DNA from: Daphnia carinata
Lineage: Eukaryota
DNA length: 64,000 nt
Assembly (NCBI RefSeq): GCF_022539665.2
Contig: NC_081331.1
Span: 12,276,001 to 12,340,000 of the forward strand
Reading direction: 5' to 3'
Positions 4,736 to 62,978 of this stretch are shown piece by piece; the stretch's first letter is position 1, and each line of letters starts with the position of its first letter. The notes beneath the pieces were generated by a model that saw nothing but the letters and a program-made list of their open reading frames with translations, ran no database searches and was not told the DNA's origin. The position numbers and the translations under genes are program-made.

Positions 4736-7700
4736 TCACGCTGCCCACATGTCCGAATTTTGAGTTTCTATGCAGACAACTTCAGGCTCACGATTGGCCT
4801 CTGCCACGAGCAGGGCCGTACTGGGCAGACTGATCTTCCTCATTTTACGTCCATTTTTAGCCAACATGATTGATGAAGGGACAGACATAGAGGACAGATT
4901 GTCATTTGTGGCCACCAAACTGCCCGACCGTGGTCTTCCACGAACGGCTTTGACTCGATGGCTTGATGTTAGAGGTTCCAGTTCGTGAGTCTCGCAATGG
5001 ACAGTGGCAATGTTGGGATTAGGATTAGGACAGGAGGTACTGGAAGTTGACAGAGTCGATTCTGACAGTCCGTAACTGTAGACGGTCTTATCGACGTGCG
5101 TCGGACTGTTGGGACAACAACAACGAAAACAATGCGTACAATTGGGGCAGCGGATTTGGGCGCATCCGTTCTGCGGCCCGCAGACTCGCAACATCGACGG
5201 GAGCAAAAGCGTCGAGTAGATCCACGACGTCGCCATGACGACGACGACAAAAGTGCCAATTTGCTGGTAGGCAACGACGCTGGATGGCAGCACGGCCGCT
5301 CCGGCTGAGAGTGTTGTGACGGCCGCCATGGCGATGGGGCTGCTCATCCGCGAAAGGGAAAAGACAACGGCGGATTCACGGTCCGTCTCCTGGGCGCTGA
5401 GCCGGTAGCCGACGGCGTAGTGCAGCGTGAAATCCACCGACAAGCCGACGGCGATGGTGACGGAGACGGATTCGAGGATGTTGAGCTTCCAGCCGAGGAG
5501 GACGAGGACGGCGACCGAGACGAGGACGACGCTGCTGAGGCAGACGACGGAAATGAAGCTGAGCCACAGGTTGCCCGTCGCGCAAATCAAGACTAGCAGA
5601 GCAATAGCCATGGCGAGAGCTATGGCACTGACGGTGCCTTCCGATAAACTGCGTTGAACATCGTAAAAAGCCAAATCGCTCGTGAACCATCCGCCTTTCA
5701 TTCCCAATGGAGCCTTGGCCAACTGCTCGTCCATCCATTGCTCCACTTGGCGATAGAAGTCGTTCATCTCCGTGTACGAAAGAGAGTAGCTGATGTTGCT
5801 GTCGTATTCGATAACGACGGCATCGACCCGCTGAGTCGACTTGGAAAAACGGGGACCTGCTACGCCCGGCAAGAAAAACTGGGCAGGCGTTTCATAAAGA
5901 TCTTTGACGGCCAACACGATACACTCGTTGAATACATCTTCTGCGTAAGGGAACGTCGACGTCTCGCAGCAGGGAGTCCGGTTTCTCCGGTCGAATGAAT
6001 CCTGTTGAATAAAAAGAAAAGTTGAAGATGGATGCAATAAAAGAAACATGTTTACGAGGTTGAATCATGTTTTATACAATAACGGCCTTTCCCCGGTTTT
6101 GCTGGAAAGCGAAGAAAGCCAAACAAAAATTGTTGTTTCTTGAGCCGATCGTGTTACGAAGAACGGACCCTCCTATTTCCATGGCAACACGATCGAGAGA
6201 AAAACCCTACTTTTGCCGATGACGGAAATTAGGGTTCAGACATGTCCCTCGTGGACTTTGCAACTTTACTTGGCCTACGTTGTTCAAAGTTGACGGGTCC
6301 AAAGTACTCCTCCCCGCCTATTTCCAGCAAGAAAGTGAGTAGAGGCGCAATGATTATCGATTCTTCTCAGCTTCCTCTAGAAAATCCTAACAGCTCTGTG
6401 TACGGCATCCCTTTGTAAGGGGCTTGTTCTTCCATCGCAAACAAACGGGAAATTTAGGTTCTCACTTTCTTTTCTCAATTTTTTTTCCCTTTTTTTTATC
6501 TTGCTGTCAAGGGCTAAGGGGTGGGGCGTATCCAAGTCCATTTCTATTTTAAATTACGGAAACAATAGAAATGAAGTATAGGCCGTGAATGGCAAATCAC
6601 CTCACAACGCCTGTCCATCCAAGATTGGAACGTCTCAATGAAACAATTTGGAAGTAACGGGCCGATCATTGGCTGGAAAAATGGTTGATCTCTGATCTCC
6701 TTGCAGAATCGCGAAAGCCATTCTTGAGATTCAGGAGCAGCCATATTGAAAGTAGGATCCAGAACCAATGAGCCTTTGGAAGACGGATCCAAATAGTTGC
6801 CATTATCTTCCGCTGCTACTCCCCACACAAATCGTAACGGCAGTTTGGCCAGCAATTCTGCACGCTGAGACCTTTCAAACCAGAATTCGTGCTTGAATTC
6901 CATATCATATCTGTAATTGAAAAAATTTTTTAATTATTAAAATATTTTTGAATGTTTGGTTTTAACTGTTACCGTTCGAACGGATGGCTGGATGAAAACA
7001 ATTGAAATTCTTTCGTGTCGGGTAATTCCAATTTCGGGTAATGGAATACAATAACTCCAGCAGCGATGGCCAACCCTCCCAAAAGAACAATCCAAAAATC
7101 TAGAATGAAAAATGAATAGTTTGTTAATACGAAAGCGTAATACATTTAAGCATATGAAAACGGACAGCGAAACTTGACCACGATGCAGGGCAATATTTTG
7201 TCGAATGTAATCCGTCCCAGGTCGGAAATGGTACGCCAGCAGCTGCGAAATGAGTTGACAAAAACTGGAGCTGATCGGCCAGTATTTTGACGACAGACGG
7301 GCGAAAAATATTTCTCCGCCAAGAGGACTGAAGCTGGCAGCCAGGATAACATAAAAAGAAAATGGATGGTGACTGTGAGGCCAGCAAAAAGGCTGAAACA
7401 CCGGATGGCTGTCACTGGACAGATGAAGGAAGAGAAAAAAGCCGCTGCTGTTGTCAGCGATGTCACCAACATAGATAGGCCTGCGTGACCTAACGTATCC
7501 ATCACCAATTTAGGAAGTGTTGTTCCATCTTTGTCCAGCTTCGCGCAGCGCCAGACCTTTCAGAACATTGAACAGCAATTTTTTTTTCGTGTAATGAAGG
7601 CGAAAATAATTCATGCGAAAGGAATAGAAATTAAGATTACTCTGACTTAATACCTGGACGTAAACAAAGACGTCGTCGGCTCCTATTCCCACGACGATTA

Positions 7701-10700
7701 CGGCGGCCAGCAGATTCATAAACGGGAAGAAATCCAGTTCAAAGACGAACGTGTAGACGAAATAAGCGACGGCCAGCGACAGGACGACCGAGACGATGGC
7801 CATGAAGGTGAGAAAGAGCGATGCCGTGTACCACCACATCAGAGTGCAGACGAGGAAAGCCCCGACGCTGAGGAAGAGGACGTCGCGGATCATGTACTCG
7901 TTGAAAAGGGCCTCTTTCAGTCCCAGGTCCATCGCCACGGCTACTGTGTAATTATCAGCAAGAGGCCAAAACTCTTTGTGACTGTCCAGCCAGTCAAAAT
8001 AAGGTAGGAGAGCCGTACTCCGAGCTGCTGGAAGGAAGATTGCAGCGTAGCGCAAATGTTGATTGCCTCCAACTAAAAACTCAGCGTCCGTCAAATAATG
8101 CAAAATATGATAAACGGCATTGTGGCGTGTGCAAATTTCCGGCACGTCGTCCCCGCAATCGCCATTATTTGGCCCGCTGGAACCTTAAAGAATTCATCTG
8201 AATTTAAAAACAAAAATGTGCTTACTACGATCGAATTTCTAACGTACCCTCTTGAACGATGCTATCGCAGTTTGGTGACAATTGAAGCCCGTGGTAATGC
8301 CTGGAGCACGCTTCGAGAATGTTGAAAACTACGGTCACGTCGGCCGCGTCGATATCCGAACAGGAGGACCGATTTCTCATTAAAGCCACGTAGTGGCCCA
8401 AAGTCCAAGATTGGCAACATTGACGATGAGCGGATTGCTGGTGAGCCGGTTGTTGACACACGGTAGGGAAAAGTGGGCTAGATCTCATGATCTCATCGAG
8501 TCGACACATGGATTGAATGGATTCTACATTCCACAGGGATCGATTCTGTTCACCAGCCGAAGCGAAAACGACGTGCGCGTATTCACCGTGCGGCTGGTCG
8601 CAGAAATAGAACGAATTCTGCGGTTTTTTAGTCTCCTCTTCTTCGCCTTCTTCTCGATCATCCTCGTCGGATCGCAACAATCCGGCAGTGCCCAGCTGTT
8701 GTAACTGACTCCACATTGGCCTGAAATAATTTTTTTCTTTTTAAATTCAAATCTTTTTTTGCCCAAATAAAATAGGTGAAACTGCTGTTTGTTTTTACTT
8801 ATGTCGCACAGGATGAGCTGGTGAGCGAGTGACGGTTTCGCCCCATTGAAAATGGCTGTGATTGGCTGTTGCATCTTTAGAAGTTCCGTGGCCGCGCAGC
8901 ACTTCAAACGAGTGGACTTGACTAGTTTTTTGTTGTTGTCGTTTCGTCTCCCAGACTTTATTGGTTTTGGCTTTGTTGGTTTCTCGGTGATCATCGTCCA
9001 GACTGTTGCTGCGCGTACGGACAGCTCCCCACGACGAAGTTGCCTCTATGGAGCCAATAGATTCACCGCGGCTGCTATTTGTCCGCTGATGTGCTTTCAT
9101 CTTACTGCGACGGGTTGAACATCAGGCATGAATAATTGATTGTAAAAGGCATTTCATGTCGTAAAACAAGAGGCAACTGTTCGTGCTATGTGATTACTTA
9201 CTTCTTTTTTCGGGGAGCCTCGTTGCTTTTAAGCGAAGATGCGGAAGTTCCAGTTGATTCCAACGGATTGATACTGAGTGGTCCGGCTCTCTGGCTCGCT
9301 CGCAAAAGATTTTCCCATGCGACAGCTCGACGTGACAACACTGTCCCTCGGCACTCGAAACCCTTTTTTTTTTTTGTCATATTGGCCAAAAAAGCAGGAA
9401 GAAGAAAGACGAGGTCATTTAAAAGAAAAAAGACAAAAAAAAAAGAATTCAAATAAAGTTCGTACACGATTTGCATGTTAGAAAAAGAAAAGCTCAAAGA
9501 ACGATTTTAAAATTTTTCTACATGGAAGAACCCAGCTGACACGGAGTTTTGTATCTTAATAAAACAAAGAAAAGAAACGTTGAGCACGGGACATTGAGCA
9601 AAGGCGTTTGCGACGAAATGGGTCTATAAATTTGAATCTGGCGCCTCGACGGTGAAATGGGTGTCGTCGAGAATACATTACGCGAAAAAGGGGAAAAAAA
9701 AGAAGAAAACTAGATGTGAAAAGGTCTGTAGCCGGAATTCCGGAAAGATAATTTCTATCTGTAGTTGTACGAACGGGTAAAGAAAAAGTTTTTAATCAAG
9801 AGCCGCTATGTTGTGCGCGAACAAGGAAGAGCCATAATCCAAAGAAGGAAAAAATAATATAAGAAGATATGGAATAGACACCCATCATTTGGCTGGAACG
9901 AAAGAAAAAAAAAATTTTGCAAGGAAGTTTAACTGCTGGAGGGCGGGCATATCGCGTACGTTTTAGAAACGAGCCATCGTTTTCAGCCGGATTGAAAGGC
10001 AGCCCACATTACGCTAGAGTAATAGCTCTGTAACCCAAGGCCATTTTCAGCTACTTTGCAGAAACGAACGCATCTACTAGAACGGCCAAAAAAAGTGTGC
10101 AGGTCGTTTAGAGCAAAGAGCTCTAAAATGGGATTGCTGGCCAAGCGTAGAAGCAACATGCAGGAGGATTGTGATTGGCTTTATTATTATACGATTACAC
10201 GAGTGGTTTATCGCAATCATGGGATCGAAGAAGGAGCAATCATAGCATCCTCATTTGTTTCATTAGTTTGTAAATACCTAGAAGAAAACCGACGTCAGCC
10301 TGGGGTCCGTACAATTCGCCCTTGAGCTCGCGCATGTGCCATTACTAAGCTATTTTTATTGCATTTCGAAAGCAATTGCAAATGTAAATCCGCCTTCGAC
10401 AAAGTGCCTGACATTCCAACACGATCGAAGACGGCCAAGAAAAATTCGTTTTTTTTAGCAAACCAATCAGAGACGTTATTACAATGATTGTCATCACTCA
10501 CCAATTGAGGATCGGAGAAATCTGGAACGGAATGTAGGGTGAATACGACGATGAGGCAAGCAATGGAAAACGTAGCCACGGCTGCGACTACCCCAGCTGG
10601 ATAGGACGACAGGATCCGGCCGTAACTGACAGTCAAAACATGGTGGGACAAGATAATTAGATTTTCGCTGTAGACCGAAGTTGAGTGGGCCCGTGAACAC

Positions 10701-10995
10701 ACAAACACGAAGAGGATAGACTGATTGCGTTTTTCACTGGCGTCTTCTTGTAAACTAATCAGAGACAAGTCCCCGTGACAGGCAAATCTCATTCGACAAT
10801 CTTTCACGTCTTCCAACTATACACTACAAGACATCAACAATGGAGGGTACATGTTTCCTGGGTGTAAGCTCTATATTACGTCACGCTCCAGTTCTTGCGA
10901 AATGTGGAGCTCTCGGTTGAGGCACAGAATCCAAATAAGAAAAAAGAAAAAGGGAATAAATTTGGAAAAATTTCACTGTTGACTTACCAGTTCAT
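4736..10995 (-). CDS. disp: Protein dispatched (RND / sterol-sensing domain Hedgehog exporter), multi-exon
   Basis: N-terminus MNCYGRILSSYP...PDFSDPQL/GFECRGT (8-nt first coding exon 10995-10988). SSD motif FFPFMNLLAAVIVVGIGADDVFVY, second-repeat motif AVGLSVDFTLHY, and LPLRFVWGVAAEDNGNYLDP. Stop at 4736. Confidence 0.93.
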
Positions 10996-20393: not shown

Positions 20394-21041
20394 TTTCAGG
20401 ACTTTGTGAACTTGTCAACAAGCAAGTTTTCGTACACCAAATTCCTACAATGGAGAAAAAATAGATGTAATTTAACGTGTAACGTTCTTGGATAACAATT
20501 CTTATCAATTTACCAGTCTGAGAAATTTATAACAGTATAGGGAATATGATGCCGCTGACCGAACAGTGGTAACAACACAAATGAAAATGATGTAACAGTC
20601 AAAACGCAATTCAACGTATTTAATTTTTGCAGACGATTCGTGGTACTAGAAAGTTCGACGTATGTTTTGTTTGGAAATGCGCCGTCTTGCGTCACAAACT
20701 CATGAGACCATGATGACGGTGTTGGATGTATGCTGAATCTGTATGCTAGATGAAATATTATACCTAATTTATATAACATAGTCAGTAAGGGAATTCTCAT
20801 CTCAGCTTAAGTTGTAATACAATGACTTGTTATAAAATTTGAAAACCCTGGAAAGTCTTATGATAACGTTTCAGCTTTTGTTATTCTTTCGCGGGAGTTG
20901 TGCGGAATAACGGCAATAGATAAAGGGTAAAGCGGCGAACAGCCTAAAACAAACTTAGCGTTCATGTTATGCCTATAGTATTTTTAAAGCTGGAGCAAAT
21001 CTAAACGCAATTTTTTCTAAAAACTAAATTAAATTAAAAAT

Positions 21042-21113
21042 TTCCCATACCGGGAATCGAACCCGAGCCTCCTGGGTGAAAGCCAGGTATCCTAGCCACT
21101 AGACCATATGGGA
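21042..21113 (-). tRNA. tRNA-Glu (anticodon TTC)
   Basis: Reverse complement TCCCATATGGTCTAGTGGCTAGGATACCTGGCTTTCACCCAGGAGGCTCGGGTTCGATTCCCGGTATGGGAA: 72-nt cloverleaf with A/B boxes, followed by a T5 Pol III terminator (21036-21040). Confidence 0.97.
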
Positions 21114-21649
21114 TATTACAATGATTTATATTTTTGTAAGCATTGTAAGTATATATTTGCAAACCATAGAAGAATTTTACAAAATGAAATTGTTAATACG
21201 AAAAGACGTGTACAATTTAACTAAAGAAATGCAAATACTATAATACAATAATACTGCAATATTAATCCCAATAACGCATAGCGCTAGATCGTCGTCCGCT
21301 TCCATAACCTTGAGAACGCCTTTGTTTTCAAGGTAAATAGTTTACTATAAAGTTTTTTATATCAATTTTAACGATTGAACAATGTTTTTTCAAATACATT
21401 AATTTGAAAAATAACCCAAACGAGCCATTTAAAAAAAAATTTCCCCATCAGAAACACAGAAAAAGCGAAATCAGAAGCTTTGGTCCCCCCGGTCATTTGG
21501 CCCTACCATACATAAGAAAGCTTGTTATTTGAATTAAATTCAATTTCCAGCTTTCCAAGTATTAGTGCTCAGTACTAGTATCAAGGTTTAGTTATCAGTG
21601 CTCATTCCAGGCTTTAGTGATCCATCCCAAGTGATTCTTCAAAGCAAAA

Positions 21650-23257
21650 ATGAATCGAGTAATCTTCGGAATTGCTGCGGGAGTGTCTGCCTTAACGGTT
21701 TTCCATTGGTATACGGCCCGAAAGCGCGAAGTTATTTCTTCTGCTGAAGTTGACAGTTTGAACGGGAGAAGTTCTGTCAATCCCCATGTCTTGTCCGTCG
21801 ACATCGGTGAAGAATCTTCGACTTCGGGAAACGTTCCAACTGGAGACCGTGAAAATGAGGTTGCCCTGCTCAAGAAGGAAATGTTGAGACTGGAAAAGGA
21901 AAGAGACGAATTCGCTTTGCAAACGCAAAAATTATCCGAACAACTTTTGGAAGAGACATCCCAACGCGAGTATCTGGAAGCGAAGAGCTCGTACCTTCAG
22001 GTGGAAATCGATATTAAAGCACGACTTTTCGAAAATGATCTTGATGATCTTCGAGCCGCCAATCGTGAAGCGATGATTGCAATGCATGATGATTTCTCCA
22101 AACAAAATGTGGCATTGCAGTTGGATAATGCTCGTCTCCGTTGCCAAAACGATTCGGTTTCGAACGATCTGATCAACGTTAGAGCTGAACGAGCCCAAGC
22201 TCTTTTGGAGAATGCCACTCTTGCCGAAGAAGTCGGCGATGTACAATCCAAGTTGCAAGCAGCACTGATCAACGTGCAAGACCTGAAAAAGGCAGCTGAT
22301 TCCAGCGAGAAGGAGCTATTGCAAATCCGTGCTGAACTGGTTACCAGCGCAGCAAGAATTGCGGAACTAGAATCAGTGAACCTTTGCCAGAGCAACAAGC
22401 TTGCGCAATTGGAAATGATCGTCCAAGAACAGAGCAGATCGACTCTCGTGACTTCGGAATCGGAGGAACCTGATGCTGCTCTCGAGAATGAAACGTTGCC
22501 CGTATTGCACGCTCGTGATGAACAGACTGAGGTTGTTGACGAATCTGCAAAGCCATCTTCCCAAGATGACGCGCAGGACGTCGCTACTCCTCCACTCGTG
22601 CAAGAGGCTGCTCCACGCCGTGAAAAGGTTGCTCGTGAACCACAAGTTCCCGTGTTTCCATGTATGGATATCCGCTTTAGGAATCAAGATATTCAAGGAT
22701 ATACGATCGTCATGGATTCGTCAGGTGAACTTCAGGATACCATCAGCCCAAATCAACAACTCGCTGAGGAGTTGAAACCTGTGGCATCACCACCAGCCAA
22801 ACAGGAGGCACCATCTAACGTGACGTCTTGTGCCTTTAAGGTCATCAACGCAGTCGTTGAGCACGAACTATCTGGAAGCTATCAGCTGCTGAACATTGCT
22901 TCGCAATACTACGGCCAGATTATCGGCAAGGAAGGAAAACACGTCAAGGCATTCCAGAAGTCGCATGGCGTAAAGATCATGGTTACGCCTCCAAGAGGGC
23001 CTCACGGTCAAATCCGAGTTACGATTACACAAGGAAACAACGAAGGGCGCCGCACCGTGGCCAAGCAAATTGTCGAATCTCTACCCTCCCTCGTCGAGAT
23101 TCCTTTTGCGTCCTTAGGACGGCTTACACCCCAGCGAAAGAAGCAATTGTGGACCCGCTACTTTGTGGATATCGTTGAAGACGAATCGAGCAAGAAGTGC
23201 GTGTTGCGCGGAAATTTAGGCAACTGTCTGCGCCTTTTCAAGGAGCAGAAAGTCTGA
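21650..23257 (+). CDS. Intronless 535-aa protein: N-terminal membrane anchor, long coiled coil, acidic/Pro linker, KH domain plus a degenerate second KH-like module
   Basis: Single uninterrupted ORF. Anchor VIFGIAAGVSALTVFHWY is followed by ARKR; heptad-rich region about aa 65-260; KH GxxG loop YYGQIIGKEGKHVKAFQKSHGVKIMV. Confidence 0.85.
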   Translation: MNRVIFGIAAGVSALTVFHWYTARKREVISSAEVDSLNGRSSVNPHVLSVDIGEESSTSGNVPTGDRENEVALLKKEMLRLEKERDEFALQTQKLSEQLLEETSQREYLEAKSSYLQVEIDIKARLFENDLDDLRAANREAMIAMHDDFSKQNVALQLDNARLRCQNDSVSNDLINVRAERAQALLENATLAEEVGDVQSKLQAALINVQDLKKAADSSEKELLQIRAELVTSAARIAELESVNLCQSNKLAQLEMIVQEQSRSTLVTSESEEPDAALENETLPVLHARDEQTEVVDESAKPSSQDDAQDVATPPLVQEAAPRREKVAREPQVPVFPCMDIRFRNQDIQGYTIVMDSSGELQDTISPNQQLAEELKPVASPPAKQEAPSNVTSCAFKVINAVVEHELSGSYQLLNIASQYYGQIIGKEGKHVKAFQKSHGVKIMVTPPRGPHGQIRVTITQGNNEGRRTVAKQIVESLPSLVEIPFASLGRLTPQRKKQLWTRYFVDIVEDESSKKCVLRGNLGNCLRLFKEQKV

Positions 23258-23644
23258 AAAGCCTATCCTTCATCTTGATGCTGACTCCTAGCAACAAACC
23301 AAAGAGATTGATAGACGAACCCGTAAATGGAATTGTCCGCTGTCGTGTGTTGGGACTTTTCTCGGTTTTGTTTCCATCGTCTTCTTCATGGCACAAGTTT
23401 GCATTCGTGTGATGAGATGTCGATACTGCACTTATACTCGTTAAAAGTGCATGTCGCGTCTGACGCATGTTTGCAGCCGTCAGAAGAAGAACCCCACTTG
23501 ATTTTTCTGTGGGGATGGCAGAGTACGCAGAACGTCCACCACGCCAGTTGTTCGGCTACCTTTACGGGGGTTTCCTCCTTAAATGAGTCAATCAATCCTG
23601 AAAGTGCGTTACTATAGAGGAAGGCAAACAAATATGGTCTCATT

Positions 23645-23975
23645 TTGTACATAACGTAAATATTTTTCCTTACCTATGTATATCCGCAAAATTATTGTTT
23701 TCGACGCAACACAGTTCAAAATTCACAGGACGATATTATCAGTCATGTTGGGTTCTTACCTTGTAACGTGTTGTAAATATCTTTCTGTACTTATAAGTTT
23801 CTCTCCACAAAATTGTTCTTTTCGCATCTAAAGTTCAAAATTCTGTTTCATATTTTCAATAATGTTTGATTTTACCGTGTACATATTGTAAAATATCTCT
23901 AAGCATTTGGCTCGCCCCGAAATTGTTCTTTTCGGCACCACTTTTCCCAAAATTCTCTGTTTCGTGTTCAATAAA
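23645..23975 (+). repeat. Three degenerate tandem copies of a ~116-bp unit in the presumed 3' UTR of the KH gene
   Basis: Units start near 23645, 23761 and 23877 and share tgta..gtaaata..aaatt(g/a)tt..ttttcg..caaaattc; the array ends at an AATAAA near 23970. Confidence 0.7.
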
Positions 23976-24397
23976 ATTATAAAAATTATTACGACGTTCA
24001 GTGTTTCTCAATTATTACCGCACCAAGAACAAGAACGAAAGGTAACGTCAACTTTAATTAAAACATAGAGAATTGTATCAAACAAAACAATTAGTATAGA
24101 AGAAATTTGTTTAAGCTGGTCAGAGTAATCTAAAATGAACCATCATATAATTATACGTACGCAACCTTCAATACTAACCAGACAGCTGAAAAATTATTTG
24201 CATTTTACTGATAATTCACGGCATGATACGATTAAGGAATAGAGACGAGGAATGACTTACATTGAAGACTATGGTTGACTAAGTTAAGAACAGGTGTTGA
24301 AGATAACTTTATCCGTTTACTACACGCTCATATTGCCCGCTGGTATTTCTAGGATTGCCGTTCGTGCCGCTGTGAGACGTGTGCGAAATTGAATACT

Positions 24398-25826
24398 TCA
24401 TTCCACCTGCAGATAGGGAAATAACGATTGTAAATTATTCTTCTATGGTAACCCAATTGGAAATGGGAACTAGAAGCTTCAATACCTGAAAGAAAACGTA
24501 GGGATGATCGGACAGGGAATCTTCCCAGAATTTCCAATCGTGAAATTGAATATTTTCACCACCCAATGTAACGTCGATGAATGTATAATTTTCCGGGATG
24601 TACTTCAACTTGTACAGTGGTGGACTAGCCAGATGCATGTCGTATTGATCCAACAGTCGCTCCAGCTCCCGTCCGCGCTGATCAATCTTCCGATAGACCT
24701 GTAATGTTTGTTTCATTTGCATACAATAAAGCAACTTGTTTTGTGTTTCCTTTGCTAAATTATGCAGCACAATATTTATTAGCACTATGACAAACCATGC
24801 CGTTATTCCATTTTGGATGTTTGGCGCTGGCATCCATCCCAATCACCAAAGTGGGTGGCGCTTGTTCCAGCAATGGCAGCAAAGTGGAACTCAGATTTAA
24901 CGAACTTGGTCGGCAGAATACGGAATAAAAGTGATATGTTTTGTTGCCCGACCTCAGTTGAATCTGTCGAAATTATAATGGTTATAACTTATCGTGCAGC
25001 CATCATTCTATTCGCTCTAAGCGATTTATTAGCTTTTATAACTCTTACCCCGGCAATATCATTACGACTGTACGTGCACATTTTGGCTCGTAGCGTGTTC
25101 TTGGCTATTACTGCCGCTCCTGATGTGTGGTGCTCTGTTAAATTGTGAAAAGCAGTATAGCCAGCCGGTACTCCATACAACTCGGGCGCGCCTGTTCCGA
25201 GAGCATATGGTTCCTGTATTAAAGCAATATCGATATTGCGGTCAACCAACAAACGTTTGGTCCTCTCCATGGCCTTTTTCTTGTGCTGTAAGTTGATCTA
25301 GCCGTGAAATAGGGCATAAAAATTGGTTAAATTCGTAATTGAAAAGTGCTGCTGGTTTTTGAATTACTTGTAAACACCGAAGAAGAATTTCAGGATGTGG
25401 TTGTTGGAAAGCGTTCGTCTCGATGCTATTAGGTCCACCAACATGCGGCAAAACGTTCCATAAGGACATCCAGGCAGCGTCGTTTCGTTTAACGGTTGGA
25501 TCGGCCAATACAACCGAAGGGCGTCCTTTAATGTCCGTCATGAGAACAGATGAGCGAGATTTCAGCTCGTCTGCTGGATATTTGACTAACTGCAAATGTC
25601 GGTTTTCCGCCACCAAATCTTCAAGGCGAGTTTTCCATTGCCGATTTTCATGTGTTAACCTTTCGACTATCTTCTCTAGCTCTTCAATTCGCTTTGTCAT
25701 TCGTTCTTTTTCTTTATTATGCTGAAGTCGTTCGCTAGTCATATCACGGTGTTGATTGATTTGGCCGGCTCTTATTTGGGGTGCAACCAGTGCATTCTTC
25801 TTACCAGCATCTATTAGAAGAGACAT
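24398..25826 (-). CDS. Intron-containing gene: leucine-zipper-like coiled coil fused to a non-LTR-retrotransposon-type AP endonuclease (EEP) domain, no RT; exons 25826(or 25810)-25368, 25297-25049, 24963-24796, 24698-24486, 24406-24398
   Basis: Removing four GT-AG introns gives LRCLQ|INLQHKKKAMERTKRLLVDRNIDIALIQEPY...DIAG|IQLRSGNKTYHFYSVFCRPS...LVIGMDASAKHPKWNNGM|VYRKIDQRGRELERLL...FIDVTL...SLSDHPYVFFQ|VE*, with all LINE APE motifs in order. The 5' end is uncertain. Confidence 0.82.
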
Positions 25827-26756
25827 TGAAAGTAGAATGTTTAAATGAATTTTGTGTTAGGAACTGCAACAAGATCAATGCGTCTTTACTCTTTCATTAT
25901 GTTTTGAGTGTAATACCATTGTAAATGGTTACACAAACGACTAGAATTCACGAACTCTAAACATAAAAAATCTGGCACGACATGTCAAAATACACGAAGA
26001 ACGGTGTATCACAAGCAAGTACTGTTTTAGGATAAAAAGCACCATGTAAAATCAATTTAAATAAGCTACAGTCTAGGCTTTTTTGGTTATAAAAGTTCTC
26101 GGTATCAGTTGGTTCTATCCATGTCCCTATTCTCCACTGTTCTCATTCTATTGATTATTCGTTAAGCGAGGCGACTTATAAGAATGCTAGATACGTTACG
26201 AGTCTTTGTTTCGTTGCACCAAATGGCTAATATAATTTAGCAGGAAAGACCAAACTTCCCCCTGAAAAGAGGCAGTTTGTTCTCTTTTGGGAATCACGCG
26301 TTTTTACTGGGTACCGGTCTTTTGTTTGTTTTTGTGGAAGCACATACGCTACTGCAATAAAAAAAAGGAGAAGCTTCAAGAGGACTGATAAATGGCTATT
26401 GTAAAGGATACACGTGTTATGTTCCCAGGTCATTGTAACGCAGCGAGGAAATCCTATATAATTTACCGAAAGGTTTCAGACCAATCCCATCAAATAACTC
26501 ACGCAAAGGTATCAAATGATGATTGCCAGGCCATTGAATACGGTTTATGACTGTGACTTACTCGTTTCAGACCACGGCTTATTCTATGGGAATGTTTTTA
26601 ATTGTAAGAGAGTATGTTTTCGGACAATAAATAAAGCATTCCAAGTTAAATAAACGTGGAATACTTTAGCATTCTTTACTGCCTTAGGCGATTAAAGTTG
26701 GCAAAGTGCTGCTACGTTACTTACAACAATTCATTATAAAAAAATTTTAAACAAAA

Positions 26757-27272
26757 TTACATACCATTCGTTTCATGGTCGCCGGTCAGTTGATCCAACC
26801 TTTTGAGAATCCCGTTAATACTTTCTTCGATGTTTTTCCCCCACTGCTTCGGTGTTTCTTTACTCTGTTCGAGCTTTTTATGTAGGGCAATTGGTACCAC
26901 ATGATGAGGAGGCTTTGGATGTAACTGATGCTGACGCGGAGTACGATGCTGTACGGGCTGATGATGGATCGTCATCTCGTAAAGATCGGTGGGATTGCTA
27001 TGCGTACTGCTGTTGTCTTCCAACATTAGTCGTTCAAGATGACACGTTTGATTATCTTGATTCAACGACTCTTCCACAGGCTGCTGGTGGTCTTCCAATT
27101 CGTGTAACGTAGCACCGCCCTTTTTTATATGTGCAGGACCACCTCCACTTGAATCGTAGCCATTCTCTTTCATGGATTTCATAGCTTCCGATGACCGGTT
27201 GAGTTTGCTTGTCCGATTGCGGATATTTGTGCTGCTGACTTCCTCCGCTTTGATATCACTTATTCCCACCAT
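26757..27272 (-). CDS. Low-complexity hydrophilic ORF/exon of unknown function, possibly the upstream coding exon of the endonuclease gene
   Basis: 171-codon ORF begins exactly after a CAG acceptor (candidate 78-nt intron 27350-27273) and has a phase-1 GTATGT donor at 26764 just before its stop. Confidence 0.5.
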   Translation of the reverse strand: MVGISDIKAEEVSSTNIRNRTSKLNRSSEAMKSMKENGYDSSGGGPAHIKKGGATLHELEDHQQPVEESLNQDNQTCHLERLMLEDNSSTHSNPTDLYEMTIHHQPVQHRTPRQHQLHPKPPHHVVPIALHKKLEQSKETPKQWGKNIEESINGILKRLDQLTGDHETNGM

Positions 27273-29057
27273 CTGTAGTACTTACACTTAGATAAACAAA
27301 AATATGTGTTATGATAGAAAGCCTTTATGCGAACGAAAATTCAAACTTACCTACCATATGGTAGTCCGCAGGGAAGAACAAAGAGCAACGCACATGCACA
27401 ACACTTTGTGTTTGTTGGTAAGCAAACTACTGACTGTGGTTCGGAAAGTTATGGAACTGCACTTATATATCCACATTTCACGATGATGGCACGAGCATGG
27501 CACGAGCTGAAAGAGTTGAATGATGACGTAACCGGGATAGCCTATTCCGGGGAGGGCTGGACGAACGGGCGGACTGCACCGCCCTTTATGCTTTGCTTAT
27601 TCTTGACATAGGGGCATCACTTTCTTATTTTTGTTGTTGTTACATCTTTAATCGTGACGGGATCACGAACAAAGACCGATACACGCATCCATTTCAAACT
27701 TTCAGGACAGTAAGTCTTTCGCCTCTTGAAACCGTTCGCTTGTGCGTCGTAAAATTTTTTTCTTTTCGTTCCAGACGACCAAGTTGAAGACCGCAAGTCG
27801 ACGTAACGTGAAATAGGAGGAAAATCAATTGTCATATATGACGGAGTAATTATCGTACCTAAAGGAAAACAAGTTCGAAAAGTGATCGTGCCTTCATACT
27901 TAAATTGCAATGGGATGACTTATTACCATTTTTCTTTGCTCTATTCGCCTCATCCATTGCTCAATCTAAATTGCTTTTGTTCGTCATTCCGTTTGTTCAT
28001 AAAGTACAACTAGAGGAAGCAACGCAACGATTCCATAAGCTATACACTTTTCCGTCTGGGTCGTGTATCCAATCCCGCGTGACTCGTTGTGGCTCTTAGC
28101 ATGTGAAACTTTTGTAGGTGATCGAGCACTACCATTCCCCAGAAGAAAAAAGGGAGAAATTGGTCAAACAAAAGGAAACGAGGGCGAATGGCGTTCCTTT
28201 CTCGTAATCTATATTTCAAAGGAAAAAAAAAGTATAAGAAAACGCAAAGTATAAAAGACAATAAAGAATTGCAGCCATTGGCGTTAACCCATAAATTTAC
28301 CTGCCCAAGTCGGCGAATAGAAGAAAGTGTTGCACGATATATCATCCACTTCCTAGGCCAATCGTTTTTCTCCACAAACCTAAGAAAAAAAAGGGGGAAT
28401 CTAAGCCTACGGGAAATTTTCAAAAGAAAGGCATGAATCAATCAAAAGTTAACCCAAAAGAAAAGTAGAGGCAGCCCCGAAAACCCTCATTTGCCTTATG
28501 GTATTTGTTAGATGGCGAGAACTGCGCTAAGTGTATTTACAAAACATCTAAGATGATTTTCTTCTGTCAGCAGTTTTCGAATAAAGCAGTCAAATTTTCA
28601 ATGTAAATACTGCATGGTTAGGTGAAAAGAAAATTTGATTTTTCCTACAGTTAGATTGTGCAAGCGGGCATAGATTTCACAACACACTGCCATCGTTATC
28701 TTTTGAATTGTCTTTTAACGGCTACGCCGTCGACTAAATTTTAAAAAAAGAAACAGAACTTGGACGACAAAGGATATAGTGAGGGAATTTTCCCTATGTG
28801 ATTCACCGAAGGAAGTCACGACAGGACATGGACGTTGAAGAATGATACATCGAGGATAGAAAACTTATTTTTTAAAAAGAATACTATTGTGTCTTGTAGG
28901 AAACTGGTAAAAAAATATGGTCAAAAGAATTGGTAAGATAAATTAGTACGTAACCGGGAATTGGGCGGCAAGGGTCCGTTACATGGCGTGTCACGCAGTC
29001 ACTTTGGGTTCCAAATTTTCTTTCTACTGAGCCCGAAGGAGGAAATGGCGTTTTCCC

Positions 29058-32000
29058 CTAAATGGACGATTCCCGGAAGGGATAACTGGCTACCATTTCT
29101 CGGGTCAAGGCTTCCGACCCTGCAACATTAACAGGATTGGGTGGTTGTATCCTGGCCTCGTACGCAACACAGGTGGCGTGATCGAGTTTGCCCGGGATCA
29201 AGGCAAGGCGTTCGCAGATTTTACGTCGTCGTATTTTTTGCTCCTCTGCATCCAGCGGTTGTCCATCTTGATCAACGTAGAGTTCGAGATCCTCCAACAG
29301 CCGTCTCTTGGCTGTTGTTAGGCGAGTGGCGAAATCGACTAGATCTTCACATAGTGATTGTGCTTTCATATGGTTTCCGTTGTCGTTCGTCGGCATCATA
29401 CCGTTACGCAGTATGTCCTCCATACGCAGCAATGTGAGTTCATGTCTTTGGAATGCTTCAACCGTCGGTAAATCTGTTTACAGGAAATCAACTGGTTTAT
29501 TAAGAAAACCAAAGAGGAAAAAGCAGTAATACTTCTGTTAGGCGGTTTGGTGGTTTGCTTGGCACCATTGGGTAACGGAACAATCTTATCCGGCTTCCTG
29601 GCCACAACAAATTTGCCTACAACAGGATCAAAATTGTCCGAGACACCGTCAGATGTCAGGAAAACGATGTCTCCTTCTTCGATCACCGTCATCGAACACG
29701 TCAAATTATTCAGCTCCGGATTTTGTCCATCTACTGGTCCCAATGCACCCAAAGCATCCCTCATGTCTCGCATCGATTGAATATCATGAGATCCTTCAAA
29801 AATAAATAAAATGTGTAGTAACATGTAAATGGAATTATGGGCATTTAATTACCATGCGTTATTTCTCTGACACCATGTTTCGGACTGTAAACGTAGGCCA
29901 GCGAATCGCCGACGTTACAGACGCAGACGACGAATTTCGCACTGTTGCTGTTATCCGAGCCTGTGTATAGAGCATTCTGCAAACTCGATTGGTCCAGTTG
30001 AGCTACTACGGCTGCTGTCAGCGTTGTTAATAGTCCACCTTCCTGCAAGATCATACTGTGTGCTGCGTGAAAGGAGCGCAGCAATGATAGGAAGACATCC
30101 TGCAGCAAAATCGGTGGGCTTTAAAGCATGAGTATAATTATAAAAACATCGTTTGAATTTCTAGACTCACGTTGGTAGTTAACTGACGGCCATTGGTAGT
30201 GGAAGGAAAAAGGGCTCGATTCAGATAATCCATAGCACCGTGGATGGCACTGCGAGCTGCCAACGCAGCTCTTTCCCCCCAATTGACTCCATCAGCCAGA
30301 CATAGTAGGGCGTTGTTGGAGCGTGTCACGATGGCAAATGCCTAGAAAAGAAAAAGTATATGAAGTGTAGGCGAAAGGTAATTTAGAAAAGTGATCTGGC
30401 TTACATCAGCCAAAGGATTGCCGGCTGTCTCTCCCGAGACGGGATGCCGTTCGTAGAGCGACGTGGCAGCTCCAAATGCTATACCACTTGGTCTATTCCA
30501 ATTAACAACGCCTGCAATCTCGATTTCAGGCTCTGGCGGTTCCGCGGCTGGTGCAGGTTCCTTAGTCGGTAATTCTTTATGGTCGGCAAGATGTTCATCA
30601 CACACTTCTGGCTGGATAGAAGCGTCCACTGGATTACAAATAACAAATTATTGATTGAATAGTTCCATTTGATTATTGTCTTTTATAAGAAATGAAGACA
30701 ACCATTAAGCCAACTATGAGTTTTTTTTTGTCATAAATAATCGAATGTCCGTTACAGTCACCAGTTGAGCGCCGACGCCCCAAATGGTATGTTGTCCTTT
30801 TATCCTTCCGGTTATTTTACCCTCAGTTCCCCGATACAGTACCATGCAAGTGGTTGCATTCATTGCATGTCCCATCGTCACACGAACGGCGGGACAGTGA
30901 ACGGAAATCAGAGACAGATCGATCAGGAAAGAAAAGAAAATACAGGAAGGAAAGCAGCCGTTAGCAAAACGGACACCGTTAGGAAGCCATGCAAGCCATG
31001 TGGCGTTTAAAACTACGCAACAATTGCGAGTCGTGCAACGCGTATCACACTAACATGATTTCAAACTGGGAAGCGACGTCGCAGGATTGAATTGCATTCG
31101 GGTAAATGTGTCAAAACCATGAAAAGCGGCCCATAAAACCGCATCTTATACGGCGAACCGTCGTTATCTTTTTAAGCACCTGTACTTTGCATTGTGTTCA
31201 GTCAGTTTTGCTTCTACTGCGCATATGTCGTACGCAAAGAAAAATACAACGAAAACCATAAAATATCATGTCGGTAGTAAAAAAAAAAAAACAAAAAAAA
31301 ATATAATAACGGTGCGTCGTTCAGTCGCGATATATCACAATCTTTAATGGGTGGGTAAAAGAGGTCGGGTCGTGGGTGGTGTGATAAGGAACGAGGTTGG
31401 AACACTTACCACCGATGGACGGCGGCACATCCGGCGTAAGAAGGGGATCAAGTTGATCGAGAAGGGGACTCAAAGAGCCAGAGACGAGTGTGTCGTCTGG
31501 TGAATCGATCTGAACCACCGACTGACGATCAAGCGATGGATGAAGCGGAAGGCTCAATATGCCAAATTTAGACAGGAAGTCTTGATAATCATCCGAATGG
31601 TCGGCGCAGGTGGATGTGCTGGTGATTATGGGGGGCGAGGTAGAAGAAGAGGTAGGAGTGGATACTGGTGGGGAGGGATCTTCACAAACGGTAGATAATT
31701 CATCATCGTCGTCATCTGATAACCGACAATGGTCGGTGTTGTGCCAGTCACTAGACGTTGCCATCGCAACGTTAGCTGATGACGTGGAAAGTGGAAGAGG
31801 GGGAATAGGTTGTCTCGGTGGTTGGGGTGGTGTTGGTGGCAGGTGATTCCTCACCACGAAGGTCTGACCCATGGCACGAATAGTCACCAATTCACCACTT
31901 CGGGCTCGCCCAGCTAACAACACAATGCGGCACAATTTCGATTTTCGAACAAAACTCCCATTATAATGCTATTTAACTTACCATTGTTTGAGGTAGATTC

Positions 32001-32565
32001 AGAACTAATTGTCGTGGGAGGTGGTGCTGCATCCTCTTCGCTGTCTATATATGAAACGTCAGGATCTTGACTCGTAACATGACCTCGTCGTCCTCGATTG
32101 ACGGTTGTGAGTCCTCCATCTGGACCAGTGTGTGTTGCTATTATCTCACTTTGGAGTGAACACAAGCGTAAACAAGGAAGTTCTTGACCTGTACGTCCAA
32201 ACAAGATGTCAGGTTGCTTCAAACGGCTTTCTCTGCAATAAGAAATACAAGGTTAAAATTGCTGTTACAAACTTAAGCACTATTCACTGTCACAAAATAC
32301 AAAAATATAATTGTATCTTAATTATTCAGATGTGTTTTTTAAAATAAACTACTAATGAGCATTCACAGAGTAAAGGAGAAGAAATAAACACTAAAATCTT
32401 CTTTAAAAAGCCATACCCATTGAGGTAGCGCTGTATAAAGCAGCCAGAATTGCTGTCAGAAGTATGAAGAGGTTTCATTTGATTGGCATTTTCCAAGCAT
32501 TCTCCACCTCCAGGATTGGAGATTTGACGAAAAAATCCAGCAAATTTTTGTTTAATGGACGGCAT
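29058..32565 (-). CDS. PP2C-like domain-containing protein (Drosophila CG9801 type), multi-exon
   Basis: [16 protein letters not shown] start; [74 protein letters not shown]. Confidence 0.9.
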
Positions 32566-33310
32566 CTTTTATGTTCTTTTGTTGATTTTAGTGTCAGGAT
32601 GAATGAAAGCAATCATCGATTCGATTCCAGCCAGCCGTGAAAACTTTAGACGAACGTTGAAAACTACCACTTTCATTTGAATTCTACGATATAAAGAGAA
32701 ACTTATCGGTCAAGTAAAGGAGTGGCCCAAAACCATTCCACTTTAAGGCAAAAAAGGAGCACAGTCAATATCATGATATCTGAAATAAACAACCCAATAC
32801 TGTTTACAATAAAGCACTGTTCTTTTTCACATGCACCTCCAGCAGCTACAGCTGGTTTGTTTGCCACCAAGAATACCGATGAATTGCACCGAAGTTGTGA
32901 CTGTTTCGTCCGTTTTCTAGCTTATGGGTTGGTTGCTGCGGTTACGTTGTATTTTCACGAGCTTTCTTTTTTTAATTTTCTCCCGTTCAAGTTCTCTTGG
33001 AATTTGTTTTTGGGACTTTCACGTTCAAGCTGCCATCTCTAAATTAAGAACTGAAACTTACTGTACAACACTGTTGCTGGTCTGCTAGATGGCGAGATGA
33101 AAACGGCAGGATAGGGATAGGGAACAAACCAGTTTGGACTTGTCAACCTGCCAATGGTGAACGTATGTAATATCATATGATCAACACAATTTGTACTAGA
33201 TCAGATCTACAACATTGTAGTACAAATCAACACCCATTCTGTTCCCGCACGGTTGATCAGCGTCATTTGCTTTATTGGGTGCAAACCAAGAAAAAATAAA
33301 ACCAAACAGC

Positions 33311-62336: not shown

Positions 62337-62978
62337 ATGAATTTGATGGTAAGTTGACTCGCATTTGAGTTTTCACCACAACCCAAATTATCTTTGGTGA
62401 TTATGTCTTGCATTACTTTGTACGGATTGCAGATTTTCCTGGCATCTATCTTGGCCGTTGCCGTCGCCAACGGAGCAAATTCGATAAAGGACACCAACAT
62501 TCAAGTTTCACCTGATCAAGACGTCGCTGAATTCTACCGCCGAGGATTTTATGGCGGATATGGGGGCCACTGGCGCGGACGTCGATCAGCAGAGGAAGCG
62601 AAATCGGAATTAGAGGCTAGCGTTGAAAGTGGCAATGATCAAGAAGCCAGCGAATATTATGCCAATCGTTTTTATGGTAATTATGGCCACCCTTCATATT
62701 ACAGTCGATATGGAAGTTGGCGTGGTCGTCGTTCAACCGGAGAGGTAAAACCGGAAATAGAGCCCAACTTTGAAGTAGTTGCTGATCAGGAAGCCAATGA
62801 ATTTCGCCGTGGCTATTACGGAGGACACCACGGATATTGGCGTGGACGTAGGTCGGCTGATGAAAACGCTAATACCCTTCAAATCGAACCGGATCAAGAC
62901 ATGAACGAGAATGTCAGACGTGGCTATTACGGTCATTCTTACGGTAGATACGGATCCTGGTACGGTAGACATTGGTAG
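62337..62978 (+). CDS. Secreted Tyr/Gly/His/Arg-rich multi-peptide precursor, paralogue B (4 units); exons 62337-62348 and 62433-62978
   Basis: MNLM|IFLASILAVAVANGA signal peptide; four DQxxxE-peptide units, three ending in WRGRR-S. Confidence 0.9.

What the first reader, a model, noticed from the sequence alone, without database searches (positions are those of the whole stretch)
24398..25826. Cryptic domesticated LINE endonuclease gene with four spliceosomal introns
Seen in sequence: the ORF track shows only fragments, but removing introns 25367-25298 (70 nt), 25048-24964 (85), 24795-24699 (97) and 24485-24407 (79), all GT-AG and phase 0, restores one stop-free frame. It carries every AP-endonuclease motif in order (LQINLQH, IALIQEPY, SVFCRP, IGMDASAKHPKW, RGRELERLL, IDVTL, SDH) and stops right after SDH, with no RT downstream. 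Established: these are the motifs of the EEP-fold endonuclease at the start of non-LTR (R1/LOA/Jockey-type) ORF2, and retrotransposition removes introns. Inference: this is a host gene exapted from a retrotransposon that later gained introns and has stayed intact.
Basis: partly seen in the sequence, partly recalled or inferred. Interest (0 to 1): 0.88.

Follow-up and report, generated by a model that had tools for sequence, protein, structure and literature searches.

The report
Retrotransposon endonuclease turned into host gene
A spliced, strongly conserved gene, likely of a water flea, joins an unstructured-looking region and a predicted coiled coil to a DNA-cutting domain of LINE-retrotransposon type that has two key catalytic residues replaced, so the host likely tamed a jumping gene's nuclease into a nucleic-acid-binding protein, a kind of adoption with one published precedent that I found.

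Summary
Confirmed and extended. All four introns are GT-AG, phase 0, and skipped in sequencing-run contigs of a close relative (each in 2-4 of 4 runs). The gene is larger than reported: a 954-nt intron and an upstream coding exon give a 529-aa protein (low-complexity N-terminus, coiled coil, C-terminal endonuclease domain, no RT). Orthologues share intron positions, the terminal VE-stop and, in one contig, the downstream tRNA-Glu/GHITM neighbours; dN/dS over the endonuclease exons is 0.005-0.023. The domain is 40% identical to an EN-RT LINE protein, and an orthologue's model folds closest to R1/TRAS1 endonucleases (Z 25 against at most 19.7 for cellular EEP enzymes). Correction: the active site is not intact. 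Tyr416Phe and Asn446Ser are in 5 of 5 host rows, against Tyr and Asn in 14 of 14 LINE rows, and helix 1 turned basic; likely a nuclease-dead binder (untested). A distant orthologue clade appears to lack three of the four introns, suggesting stepwise gain. Precedent: ruminant BCNTP97 (intact RTE-1 endonuclease). This scan noted a different RT-less APE gene in another genome (e1-7393852). Verdict: new variant of a rare known kind.

The parts
27355..27560 (-). 5' untranslated exon (at least this far; start of transcription not fixed)
   Evidence: X2 record 21; contigs of X15 and X19 run past 27600, the end of the stretch laid
27287..27354 (-). 68-nt GT-AG intron in the 5' UTR (alternative donor at 27350, 64 nt)
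   Evidence: joints 27286/27355 in X1 and X2, 27287/27352 in X19
26765..27286 (-). first coding exon, ATG at 27272; 169 aa low-complexity Ser/His/Gln/Pro-rich region
   Evidence: 56% identical to L002, which has its ATG at the same place; dN/dS 0.16
25811..26764 (-).
   Evidence: X1, X2 joints; X15, X19 loose ends; same position in L002
25368..25810 (-). second coding exon: predicted coiled coil (aa about 198-244, 25727-25587), conserved W-x-S-x-W-N-V-L-P-H motif, start of the endonuclease domain (LRCLQ)
   Evidence: dN/dS 0.04-0.10
25298..25367 (-). 70-nt GT-AG intron after codon 317, inside strand 1 of the endonuclease domain
25049..25297 (-). endonuclease exon (INLQH, basic helix 1, IQEPY; N319, E346)
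24964..25048 (-). 85-nt GT-AG intron after codon 400 (also seen retained in contigs of all 4 runs)
24796..24963 (-). endonuclease exon with the two changed catalytic sites: F416 (24918-24916, Tyr in LINEs) and S446 (24828-24826, Asn in LINEs); D444 kept
24699..24795 (-). 97-nt GT-AG intron after codon 456, inside a 4-residue insertion found in all host rows and no LINE row
24486..24698 (-). endonuclease exon (D498, D520, H521)
24407..24485 (-). 79-nt GT-AG intron after codon 527; the one endonuclease intron that seems shared with the distant orthologues
24066..24406 (-). last exon: Val-Glu-stop (stop 24400-24398), then 3' UTR to about 24066
   Evidence: VE-stop also in L001, L002, L004; ATTAAA at 24058
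21042..21113 (-). tRNA-Glu(TTC), syntenic marker downstream; GHITM/Bax1-I gene follows (about 20400-19016)
   Evidence: same order in L004

Best explanation
This is a spliced, conserved 529-aa gene whose C-terminal domain likely came from the endonuclease of an R1/LOA-like LINE retrotransposon and is predicted to have lost most of its DNA-cutting power, so that it would work as a nucleic-acid-binding module held in pairs by its predicted coiled coil. Shown: exon structure, purifying selection, synteny in one contig, LINE-type sequence and fold, no RT, Tyr-to-Phe and Asn-to-Ser at two catalytic columns, a basic helix 1 and a 4-residue insertion. Inferred history: a LINE inserted in or behind a host exon, was cut at the end of its endonuclease domain, was fused in frame, was disarmed before the two orthologue clades split, and then gained introns in steps (last intron early, three more in the window's lineage). 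Inferred mechanism: the kept metal and backbone contacts (N319, E346, D444, D498, D520, H521) and the added positive charge let it grip a DNA or RNA backbone or nick without hydrolysing it efficiently. The domestication part alone I put at about 0.95; the score given is for the whole, including the nuclease-dead binder.
For: Splicing. Selection: 25 of 25 exonic differences among the 40 rows shown (of 299) are synonymous; dN/dS on endonuclease exons 0.021 against L002 (bootstrap 0.008-0.039), 0.023 against L003 and 0.005 against L004, at dS about 1-1.35 (L003 and L004 are 99% alike and count as one lineage). Synteny: L004 runs endonuclease exons, tRNA-Glu, GHITM as the window does. Origin: 39.6% identity over 225 aa to the EN-RT protein P0004 (E 1e-42); best PDB sequence hits TRAS1 and R1Bm endonucleases; model of orthologue P0003 (pLDDT 83.6) matches R1Bm and TRAS1 at Z 25.1-25.3 (rmsd 2.2-2.6 A, 202-207 aligned), human L1 at 20.9, best cellular EEP 19.7. 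No RT match to P0004 in the 64-kb window. Disarming: F and S in 5 of 5 host rows, Y and N in 14 of 14 LINE rows; D520 is E in 3 of 5 host rows. In APE1, mutating Asn212 lowers activity 7000-fold and Y171F about 1200-fold (passages of bioRxiv 10.64898/2026.05.11.724140); L1 EN Y115 and N147 are listed as catalytic (passage of PMC3670995). Binding: net charge of the 18 residues after QxNL is +4 to +5 in 5 of 5 host rows and -2 to +2 in 14 of 14 LINE rows; whole-domain charge +3 to +8 against -2 to -10.
Against: No activity, binding or oligomer was measured or predicted. Six of eight catalytic positions, including the general base D444 and H521, are kept in the window protein, which also fits an enzyme with a new substrate. 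The match of F416 and S446 to APE1 Y171 and N212 rests on motif position and the TRAS1 alignment plus recalled family alignments; the APE1 numbers are for other substitutions in another enzyme. The good model was built with LINE rows in its alignment, which may pull it toward LINE structures; without them the model failed (pLDDT 36.7). The tree holds no cellular EEP row, and nesting inside the 12 closest LINEs is not forced (AU p 0.109). The origin of the N-terminal half is unknown. Two of the four runs (X1, X2), which carry the only direct joints for the 70- and 954-nt introns, are only guessed to be RNA.
Confidence: 0.58

Rival explanations
1. The gene is a domesticated LINE endonuclease that is still an enzyme, with a changed substrate (RNA, DNA ends, or a small phosphoester), the Phe and Ser reshaping the pocket instead of killing it.
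For: N319, E346, D444, D498 and H521 are unchanged in 5 of 5 host rows; the same two substitutions are fixed in both clades, 65-69% identical; the EEP fold carries many activities (hit list).
Against: With about 67% overall identity, keeping five of six sites is not more than background. D520 drifted to Glu in the distant clade. The Asn orients the attacking water in APE1 (passages of PMC12557600) and is present in 14 of 14 LINE rows.
Confidence: 0.3
2. The endonuclease reached the host through a Helentron or another DNA element that had captured a LINE endonuclease and may have carried introns already.
For: Helentrons carry an AP endonuclease at the very C-terminus of their protein (passages of PMC4067079), the same position as here.
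Against: No Rep or helicase domain in the N-terminal exons and none recognised among the window's 23 ORFs of 150 aa or more (read by eye). Helentron endonucleases are described as closest to CR1, while the nearest relatives here are EN-RT proteins, three of them with an RNase H domain on record, and R1/TRAS1 structures. Distant orthologues seem to lack three of the four introns.
Confidence: 0.05
3. It is an old cellular EEP gene (APE1, TDP2, nocturnin or sphingomyelinase type) that only resembles LINE endonucleases.
For: Introns, purifying selection and synteny are those of an ordinary gene; cellular EEP folds match at Z 12-19.7.
Against: 40% identity to a LINE ORF2 protein against 8-17% to cellular EEP structures; Pfam Exo_endo_phos_2 above cut-off, Exo_endo_phos below; no cellular EEP among PDB sequence hits at E up to 10.
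Confidence: 0.03
4. It is a non-autonomous mobile element or a decaying insertion, and the splicing is incidental.
For: Genome-wide copy number was not testable.
Against: Fixed position next to tRNA-Glu and GHITM in L004 despite dS above 1, shared introns, dN/dS about 0.02, one copy in the window.
Confidence: 0.02

Closest known systems
BCNTP97 / p97Bcnt of ruminants (passages of PMC12129022; reference titles in PMC4613681; the original paper PMID 16384818 was not held)
   Same: Host protein-coding gene that took up only the APE endonuclease domain of a LINE ORF2, without RT; function unknown.
   Different: BCNTP97 is a duplicate of BCNT with an RTE-1 domain described as intact, in mammals. 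Here the donor is R1/LOA-like, the host is an invertebrate, no BCNT domain was found, the domain is C-terminal, is split by four introns and has two catalytic residues replaced.
Endonuclease domains of TRAS1 (1wdu) and R1Bm (2ei9), and EN-RT ORF2 proteins P0004, P0016-P0026
   Same: Fold (Z about 25), motif order, 40% identity to P0004.
   Different: No RT, RNase H or zinc knuckle; introns; Tyr-to-Phe, Asn-to-Ser; basic helix 1; 4-residue insertion; long N-terminal extension.
L1TD1 and Lyosin (passages of PMC12129022)
   Same: LINE coding sequence turned into host protein; a role against LINEs has been proposed for them.
   Different: They derive from ORF1 (RNA-binding), not from the ORF2 endonuclease, and are vertebrate.
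Pseudomonas Crc (passages of PMC3662782)
   Same: EEP fold kept with changed catalytic residues (the Asp210 and Asn212 equivalents) and no nuclease activity: a model for a pseudo-nuclease.
   Different: Bacterial, of cellular AP-endonuclease descent, and it lost positive surface charge, whereas this domain gained it.
Helentron Rep-helicase-endonuclease (passages of PMC4067079)
   Same: LINE-derived AP endonuclease at the C-terminus of a larger protein.
   Different: No Rep or helicase found here; fixed locus under purifying selection.

Membership tests
APE-type non-LTR retrotransposon ORF2 (R1/LOA-like) | N-terminal EEP endonuclease of LINE type | tested here: met
   (domain type met; here it is C-terminal)
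APE-type non-LTR retrotransposon ORF2 (R1/LOA-like) | RT in the same frame downstream | tested here: not met
   stop 8 residues after SDH; tblastn of P0004 finds only the endonuclease exons in the window
APE-type non-LTR retrotransposon ORF2 (R1/LOA-like) | Full catalytic set N-E-Y-D-N-D-D-H | tested here: not met
   F416 and S446; 14 of 14 LINE rows keep all eight
APE-type non-LTR retrotransposon ORF2 (R1/LOA-like) | No spliceosomal introns | tested here: not met
APE-type non-LTR retrotransposon ORF2 (R1/LOA-like) | Dispersed copies with target-site duplications and 3' tails | not testable with these tools
   no genome held; one copy in the 64-kb window
Domesticated transposon gene | Fixed at an orthologous locus across species | tested here: met
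   L004 shares tRNA-Glu and GHITM; the other three loci are too short to show neighbours
Domesticated transposon gene | Purifying selection on the transposon-derived part | tested here: met
   dN/dS 0.005-0.023; 25 of 25 listed exonic differences synonymous
Domesticated transposon gene | Transcribed and spliced | tested here: met
   in a close relative; two of four runs on record as RNA
Domesticated transposon gene | Single copy in the genome and a shown host function | not testable with these tools
   no genome; needs experiment
BCNTP97 (BCNT family) | BCNT-derived host part with an RTE-1 endonuclease | tested here: not met
   no BCNT family hit on the N-terminal exons; nearest endonucleases are R1/TRAS1-like
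Helentron | Rep and Pif1 helicase fused ahead of the endonuclease | tested here: not met
   only weak coiled-coil hits below cut-off on the N-terminal exons
Helentron | Endonuclease closest to CR1 | not tested
   no CR1 or Helentron row in the tree
Cellular EEP enzymes (APE1/ExoIII, TDP2, nocturnin, EEPD1) | Closer to cellular members than to LINE endonucleases | tested here: not met
   Z at most 19.7 and 8-17% identity against Z 25 and 21-23% for R1/TRAS1; model built with LINE rows, so the fold margin may be inflated; sequence evidence is independent of the model

The most novel reading that the evidence does not exclude
An ancient, deliberately disarmed LINE endonuclease serves as a host defence factor: dimerised by its coiled coil, it occupies the target sites or nicks used by its still-intact parent family of R1/LOA-like retrotransposons, or poisons their ORF2 particles, as a dominant-negative decoy. 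It would be the first nuclease-dead LINE endonuclease restriction factor, and its four introns would record a stepwise colonisation of a once intronless retro-domain.
Probability: 0.15. Interest if true: 0.9.

Novelty: new variant of a known kind. Interest (0 to 1): 0.72.

Why it matters
Co-option of LINE proteins is described as rare and poorly understood, and the one endonuclease case named in a 2025 paper is ruminant BCNTP97, of unknown function (passages of PMC12129022). This is an independent, old, invertebrate case under very strong constraint (dN/dS about 0.02), with a clear molecular signature of what changed on adoption (two catalytic residues replaced, a basic helix added). If the host is Daphnia, as inferred, knock-down and biochemistry are feasible, which makes the question of what a host does with a LINE endonuclease directly testable. 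Because the ancestor was intronless, the gene is also a natural marker for intron gain. It may be a gene that annotation overlooks: the neighbouring KH-domain protein is in NCBI/UniRef while no spliced full-length product surfaced among 177 candidates (weak evidence).

Tried and rejected
Whole-genome copy count: no genome held; loci not searchable by handle. The deep HMMER search of protein representatives never ran (queue full at all 10 tries), so the range of the family outside the lineages seen here is open. A second read-laying over 20900-33000 did not complete, so the transcript start and any link to the upstream PP2C-like gene stay open. A coiled-coil dimer prediction did not run: no verdict. 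First structure model from six orthologues failed (pLDDT 36.7). No relatives in prokaryote genomes or viral contigs. The Atlas gave only leads: Exo_endo_phos clusters at 0.82-0.83 for P0011 and unnamed proteins under 0.9 with low recognition for the coiled-coil exon. The runs hold only 0.11-0.13 of the words, i.e. a relative, and say nothing on habitat. Alternative last exons after donor 24485 were listed and rejected because the 79-nt joint and the VE-stop are seen in runs and orthologues. The ATG at 25826 was rejected as start. A LINE ORF1 origin of the N-terminal half: no zinc knuckle or ORF1 family hit, untested otherwise. Nesting within the 12 closest LINEs: not forced (AU p 0.109). Paper searches found no description of this gene; the library lacks most subscription journals and repeat databases, and I read no supplements, where a listing could hide. 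Earlier scan notes had no look-alike by sequence or place. My recollection that Crc has the same Asn-to-Ser change was wrong (Asp-to-Ser and Asn-to-Tyr).

Full report
Observation. Two exons pass the Pfam Exo_endo_phos_2 cut-off on their own. Of 24 runs listed (shares 0.11-0.13, so a relative), four were laid. Joints skip the 70-nt intron in 2 of 4 runs, the 85-nt in 3 of 4, the 97-nt in 4 of 4 and the 79-nt in 2 of 4. The 85- and 97-nt joints have under 30 letters on the short side; X1 and X2 are only guessed to be RNA, X15 and X19 are on record as RNA. The 85-nt intron is also present unspliced in contigs of all four runs.

The gene is longer than reported. One search shows a 954-nt GT-AG intron (26764-25811) in X1 and X2, and loose ends in X15 and X19 match the upstream exon at 27 of 29 letters. 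A 68-nt intron lies in the 5' UTR. The frame starts at 27272 and encodes 529 aa: about 190 low-complexity residues, a heptad-like stretch at about 198-244 with weak coiled-coil Pfam hits below cut-off, a linker with a conserved W-x-S-x-W-N-V-L-P-H motif, and the endonuclease domain at about 311-529.

Orthologues and selection. A metagenome scan gave 4 loci among 179 candidate stretches. L002 holds the whole gene with the same five coding introns and a 536-aa product ending VE-stop; L003 and L004 hold parts with introns at the same positions. L004 continues with tRNA-Glu and a GHITM/Bax1-I gene in the order seen in the window. By my own Nei-Gojobori script, dN/dS on the endonuclease exons is 0.021 (bootstrap 0.008-0.039) against L002, 0.023 (0.007-0.049) against L003 and 0.005 (0-0.015) against L004, at dS about 1-1.35; L003 and L004 are 99% alike where they overlap and count once. 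The coiled-coil exon gives 0.04-0.10 and the first exon 0.16. Of the 40 difference rows shown (259 more not shown), 25 fall in coding exons and all 25 are synonymous; for one exon the nine listed are the full set in run X1.

A distant clade and the intron history. Protein searches found P0001 (90% on one exon) and a clade at 65-69% identity (P0002, P0003, P0006-P0011). P0011 on L001 is contiguous and ends FFQVE-stop; P0003, identical to it over 234 residues, instead runs FFQ then an unrelated tail, and so do P0002 and P0006-P0010. These proteins cross the positions of the first three endonuclease introns without a break, on contigs up to 110 kb, and P0001 reads into its introns, which shows the collection holds unspliced ORF calls. 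I infer that the distant clade has the last intron but lacks the other three; I did not see that DNA. Since LINEs are intronless (established), stepwise gain is the simpler reading, but loss of three neighbouring introns is not excluded without an outgroup. Frequent intron gain is reported for Daphnia pulex (abstract of PMC4202315).

Origin. The domain is 39.6% identical over 225 aa to P0004, an EN-RT protein. A search with P0004's endonuclease gave 13 long proteins, all 13 with RT and 3 with RNase H on record. The best PDB sequence hits of P0003 are TRAS1 and R1Bm endonucleases. A model of P0003 built with LINE rows (pLDDT 83.6) matches R1Bm and TRAS1 at Z 25.1-25.3, human L1 at 20.9 and cellular EEP enzymes at 19.7 or less; a model without LINE rows failed, so the fold margin may lean toward LINEs. 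In a tree of 19 rows the five host rows form one group (100/100) on a long stem among LINE rows; nesting inside the 12 closest is not forced (AU p 0.109) and no cellular EEP row was included. No RT match lies in the window. R1/LOA-like is a label from these hits and from recall, not from a repeat database.

What changed on adoption. At the eight catalytic columns, 14 of 14 LINE rows have N-E-Y-D-N-D-D-H; 5 of 5 host rows have Phe for Tyr (F416) and Ser for Asn (S446), and the three distant rows also have Glu for the last Asp. TRAS1 has Tyr and Asn at these columns. L1 EN Y115 and N147 are listed among catalytic residues (passage of PMC3670995); in APE1, Asn212 orients the attacking water (passages of PMC12557600), its mutation costs 7000-fold and Y171F about 1200-fold (passages of bioRxiv 10.64898/2026.05.11.724140). 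The residue equivalence to APE1 is recalled. Helix 1 became basic (+4 to +5 against -2 to +2) and four residues were inserted before the conserved D-x-R-G.

Mechanism. Most likely the domain binds a nucleic-acid backbone or nick without cutting well, and the coiled coil pairs two such domains; this is inferred, not shown (0.58 overall; domestication itself about 0.95). Slow release of L1 EN from a nicked site has been proposed (passage of PMC12809410), and Crc shows that an EEP fold can persist without nuclease activity (passages of PMC3662782). The main rival is an enzyme with a new substrate (0.3), since six of eight sites are kept in the window protein. Passage through a Helentron (passages of PMC4067079), a cellular EEP origin, or a live element are each unlikely for the reasons listed.

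Known and new. Ruminant BCNTP97 is a published host gene with an RTE-1 endonuclease, described as intact and of unknown function, and LINE co-option is called poorly understood (passages of PMC12129022; reference titles in PMC4613681; the original paper was not held). Passages of two reviews (PMC6719617; PMC3424704) add no such case. Searches found no description of this gene; coverage is incomplete and no supplements were read. An earlier unchecked note of this scan describes a different RT-less PHD-plus-APE gene in another genome (e1-7393852). I file this as a new variant of a rare known kind: independent, invertebrate, R1/LOA-like donor, intron-split and apparently disarmed. Interest 0.72. 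Open points: taxonomic range, copy number, transcript start, origin of the N-terminal half, and function.

Noticed in passing
window 21650-23257 (+): Intronless 535-aa coiled-coil plus KH-domain ORF (KH_1 E 8.7e-7) between the endonuclease gene and tRNA-Glu; L004 has no match to it at that place, so it is probably a lineage-specific insertion such as a retrocopy. It is in NCBI/UniRef.
   Followed up: partly
window 26765 to beyond 27600: In run X15 a 3602-nt contig at depth 49.5 starts at the splice donor 26765 and runs past the end of the laid stretch; it may be a long 3' UTR or read-through from the upstream PP2C-like gene overlapping the first exons of this gene.
   Followed up: no
window 25048-24964 (-): The 85-nt intron is present unspliced in contigs of all four runs beside the spliced form in three; possible regulated retention, which would truncate the endonuclease domain. 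Contig depth cannot quantify it.
   Followed up: no
window about 29058-32560 (-): Multi-exon PP2C-like gene upstream (weak PP2C_2 hit, E 0.0066); resembles Drosophila CG9801 by recall.
   Followed up: partly
window 23656-23934: Two copies of a unit of about 117 nt, 69% alike, between the KH gene and the 3' UTR.
   Followed up: no
window about 4736-10816 (-): Multi-exon membrane protein gene that looks like Dispatched (Patched/sterol-sensing family) by recall (ORFs); not scanned.
   Followed up: no
window 62358-62978 (+): ORF with a signal-peptide-like start and repeated Gly/Tyr-rich units ending W-R-G-R-R-S, like a peptide precursor with dibasic cleavage sites; exact sequence not in the collection.
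   Followed up: no
proteins P0004, P0016-P0026: A family of intact EN-RT(-RNase H) LINE ORF2 proteins of 700-1235 aa without names in metagenome assemblies; the closest relatives found of the domesticated domain.
   Followed up: partly
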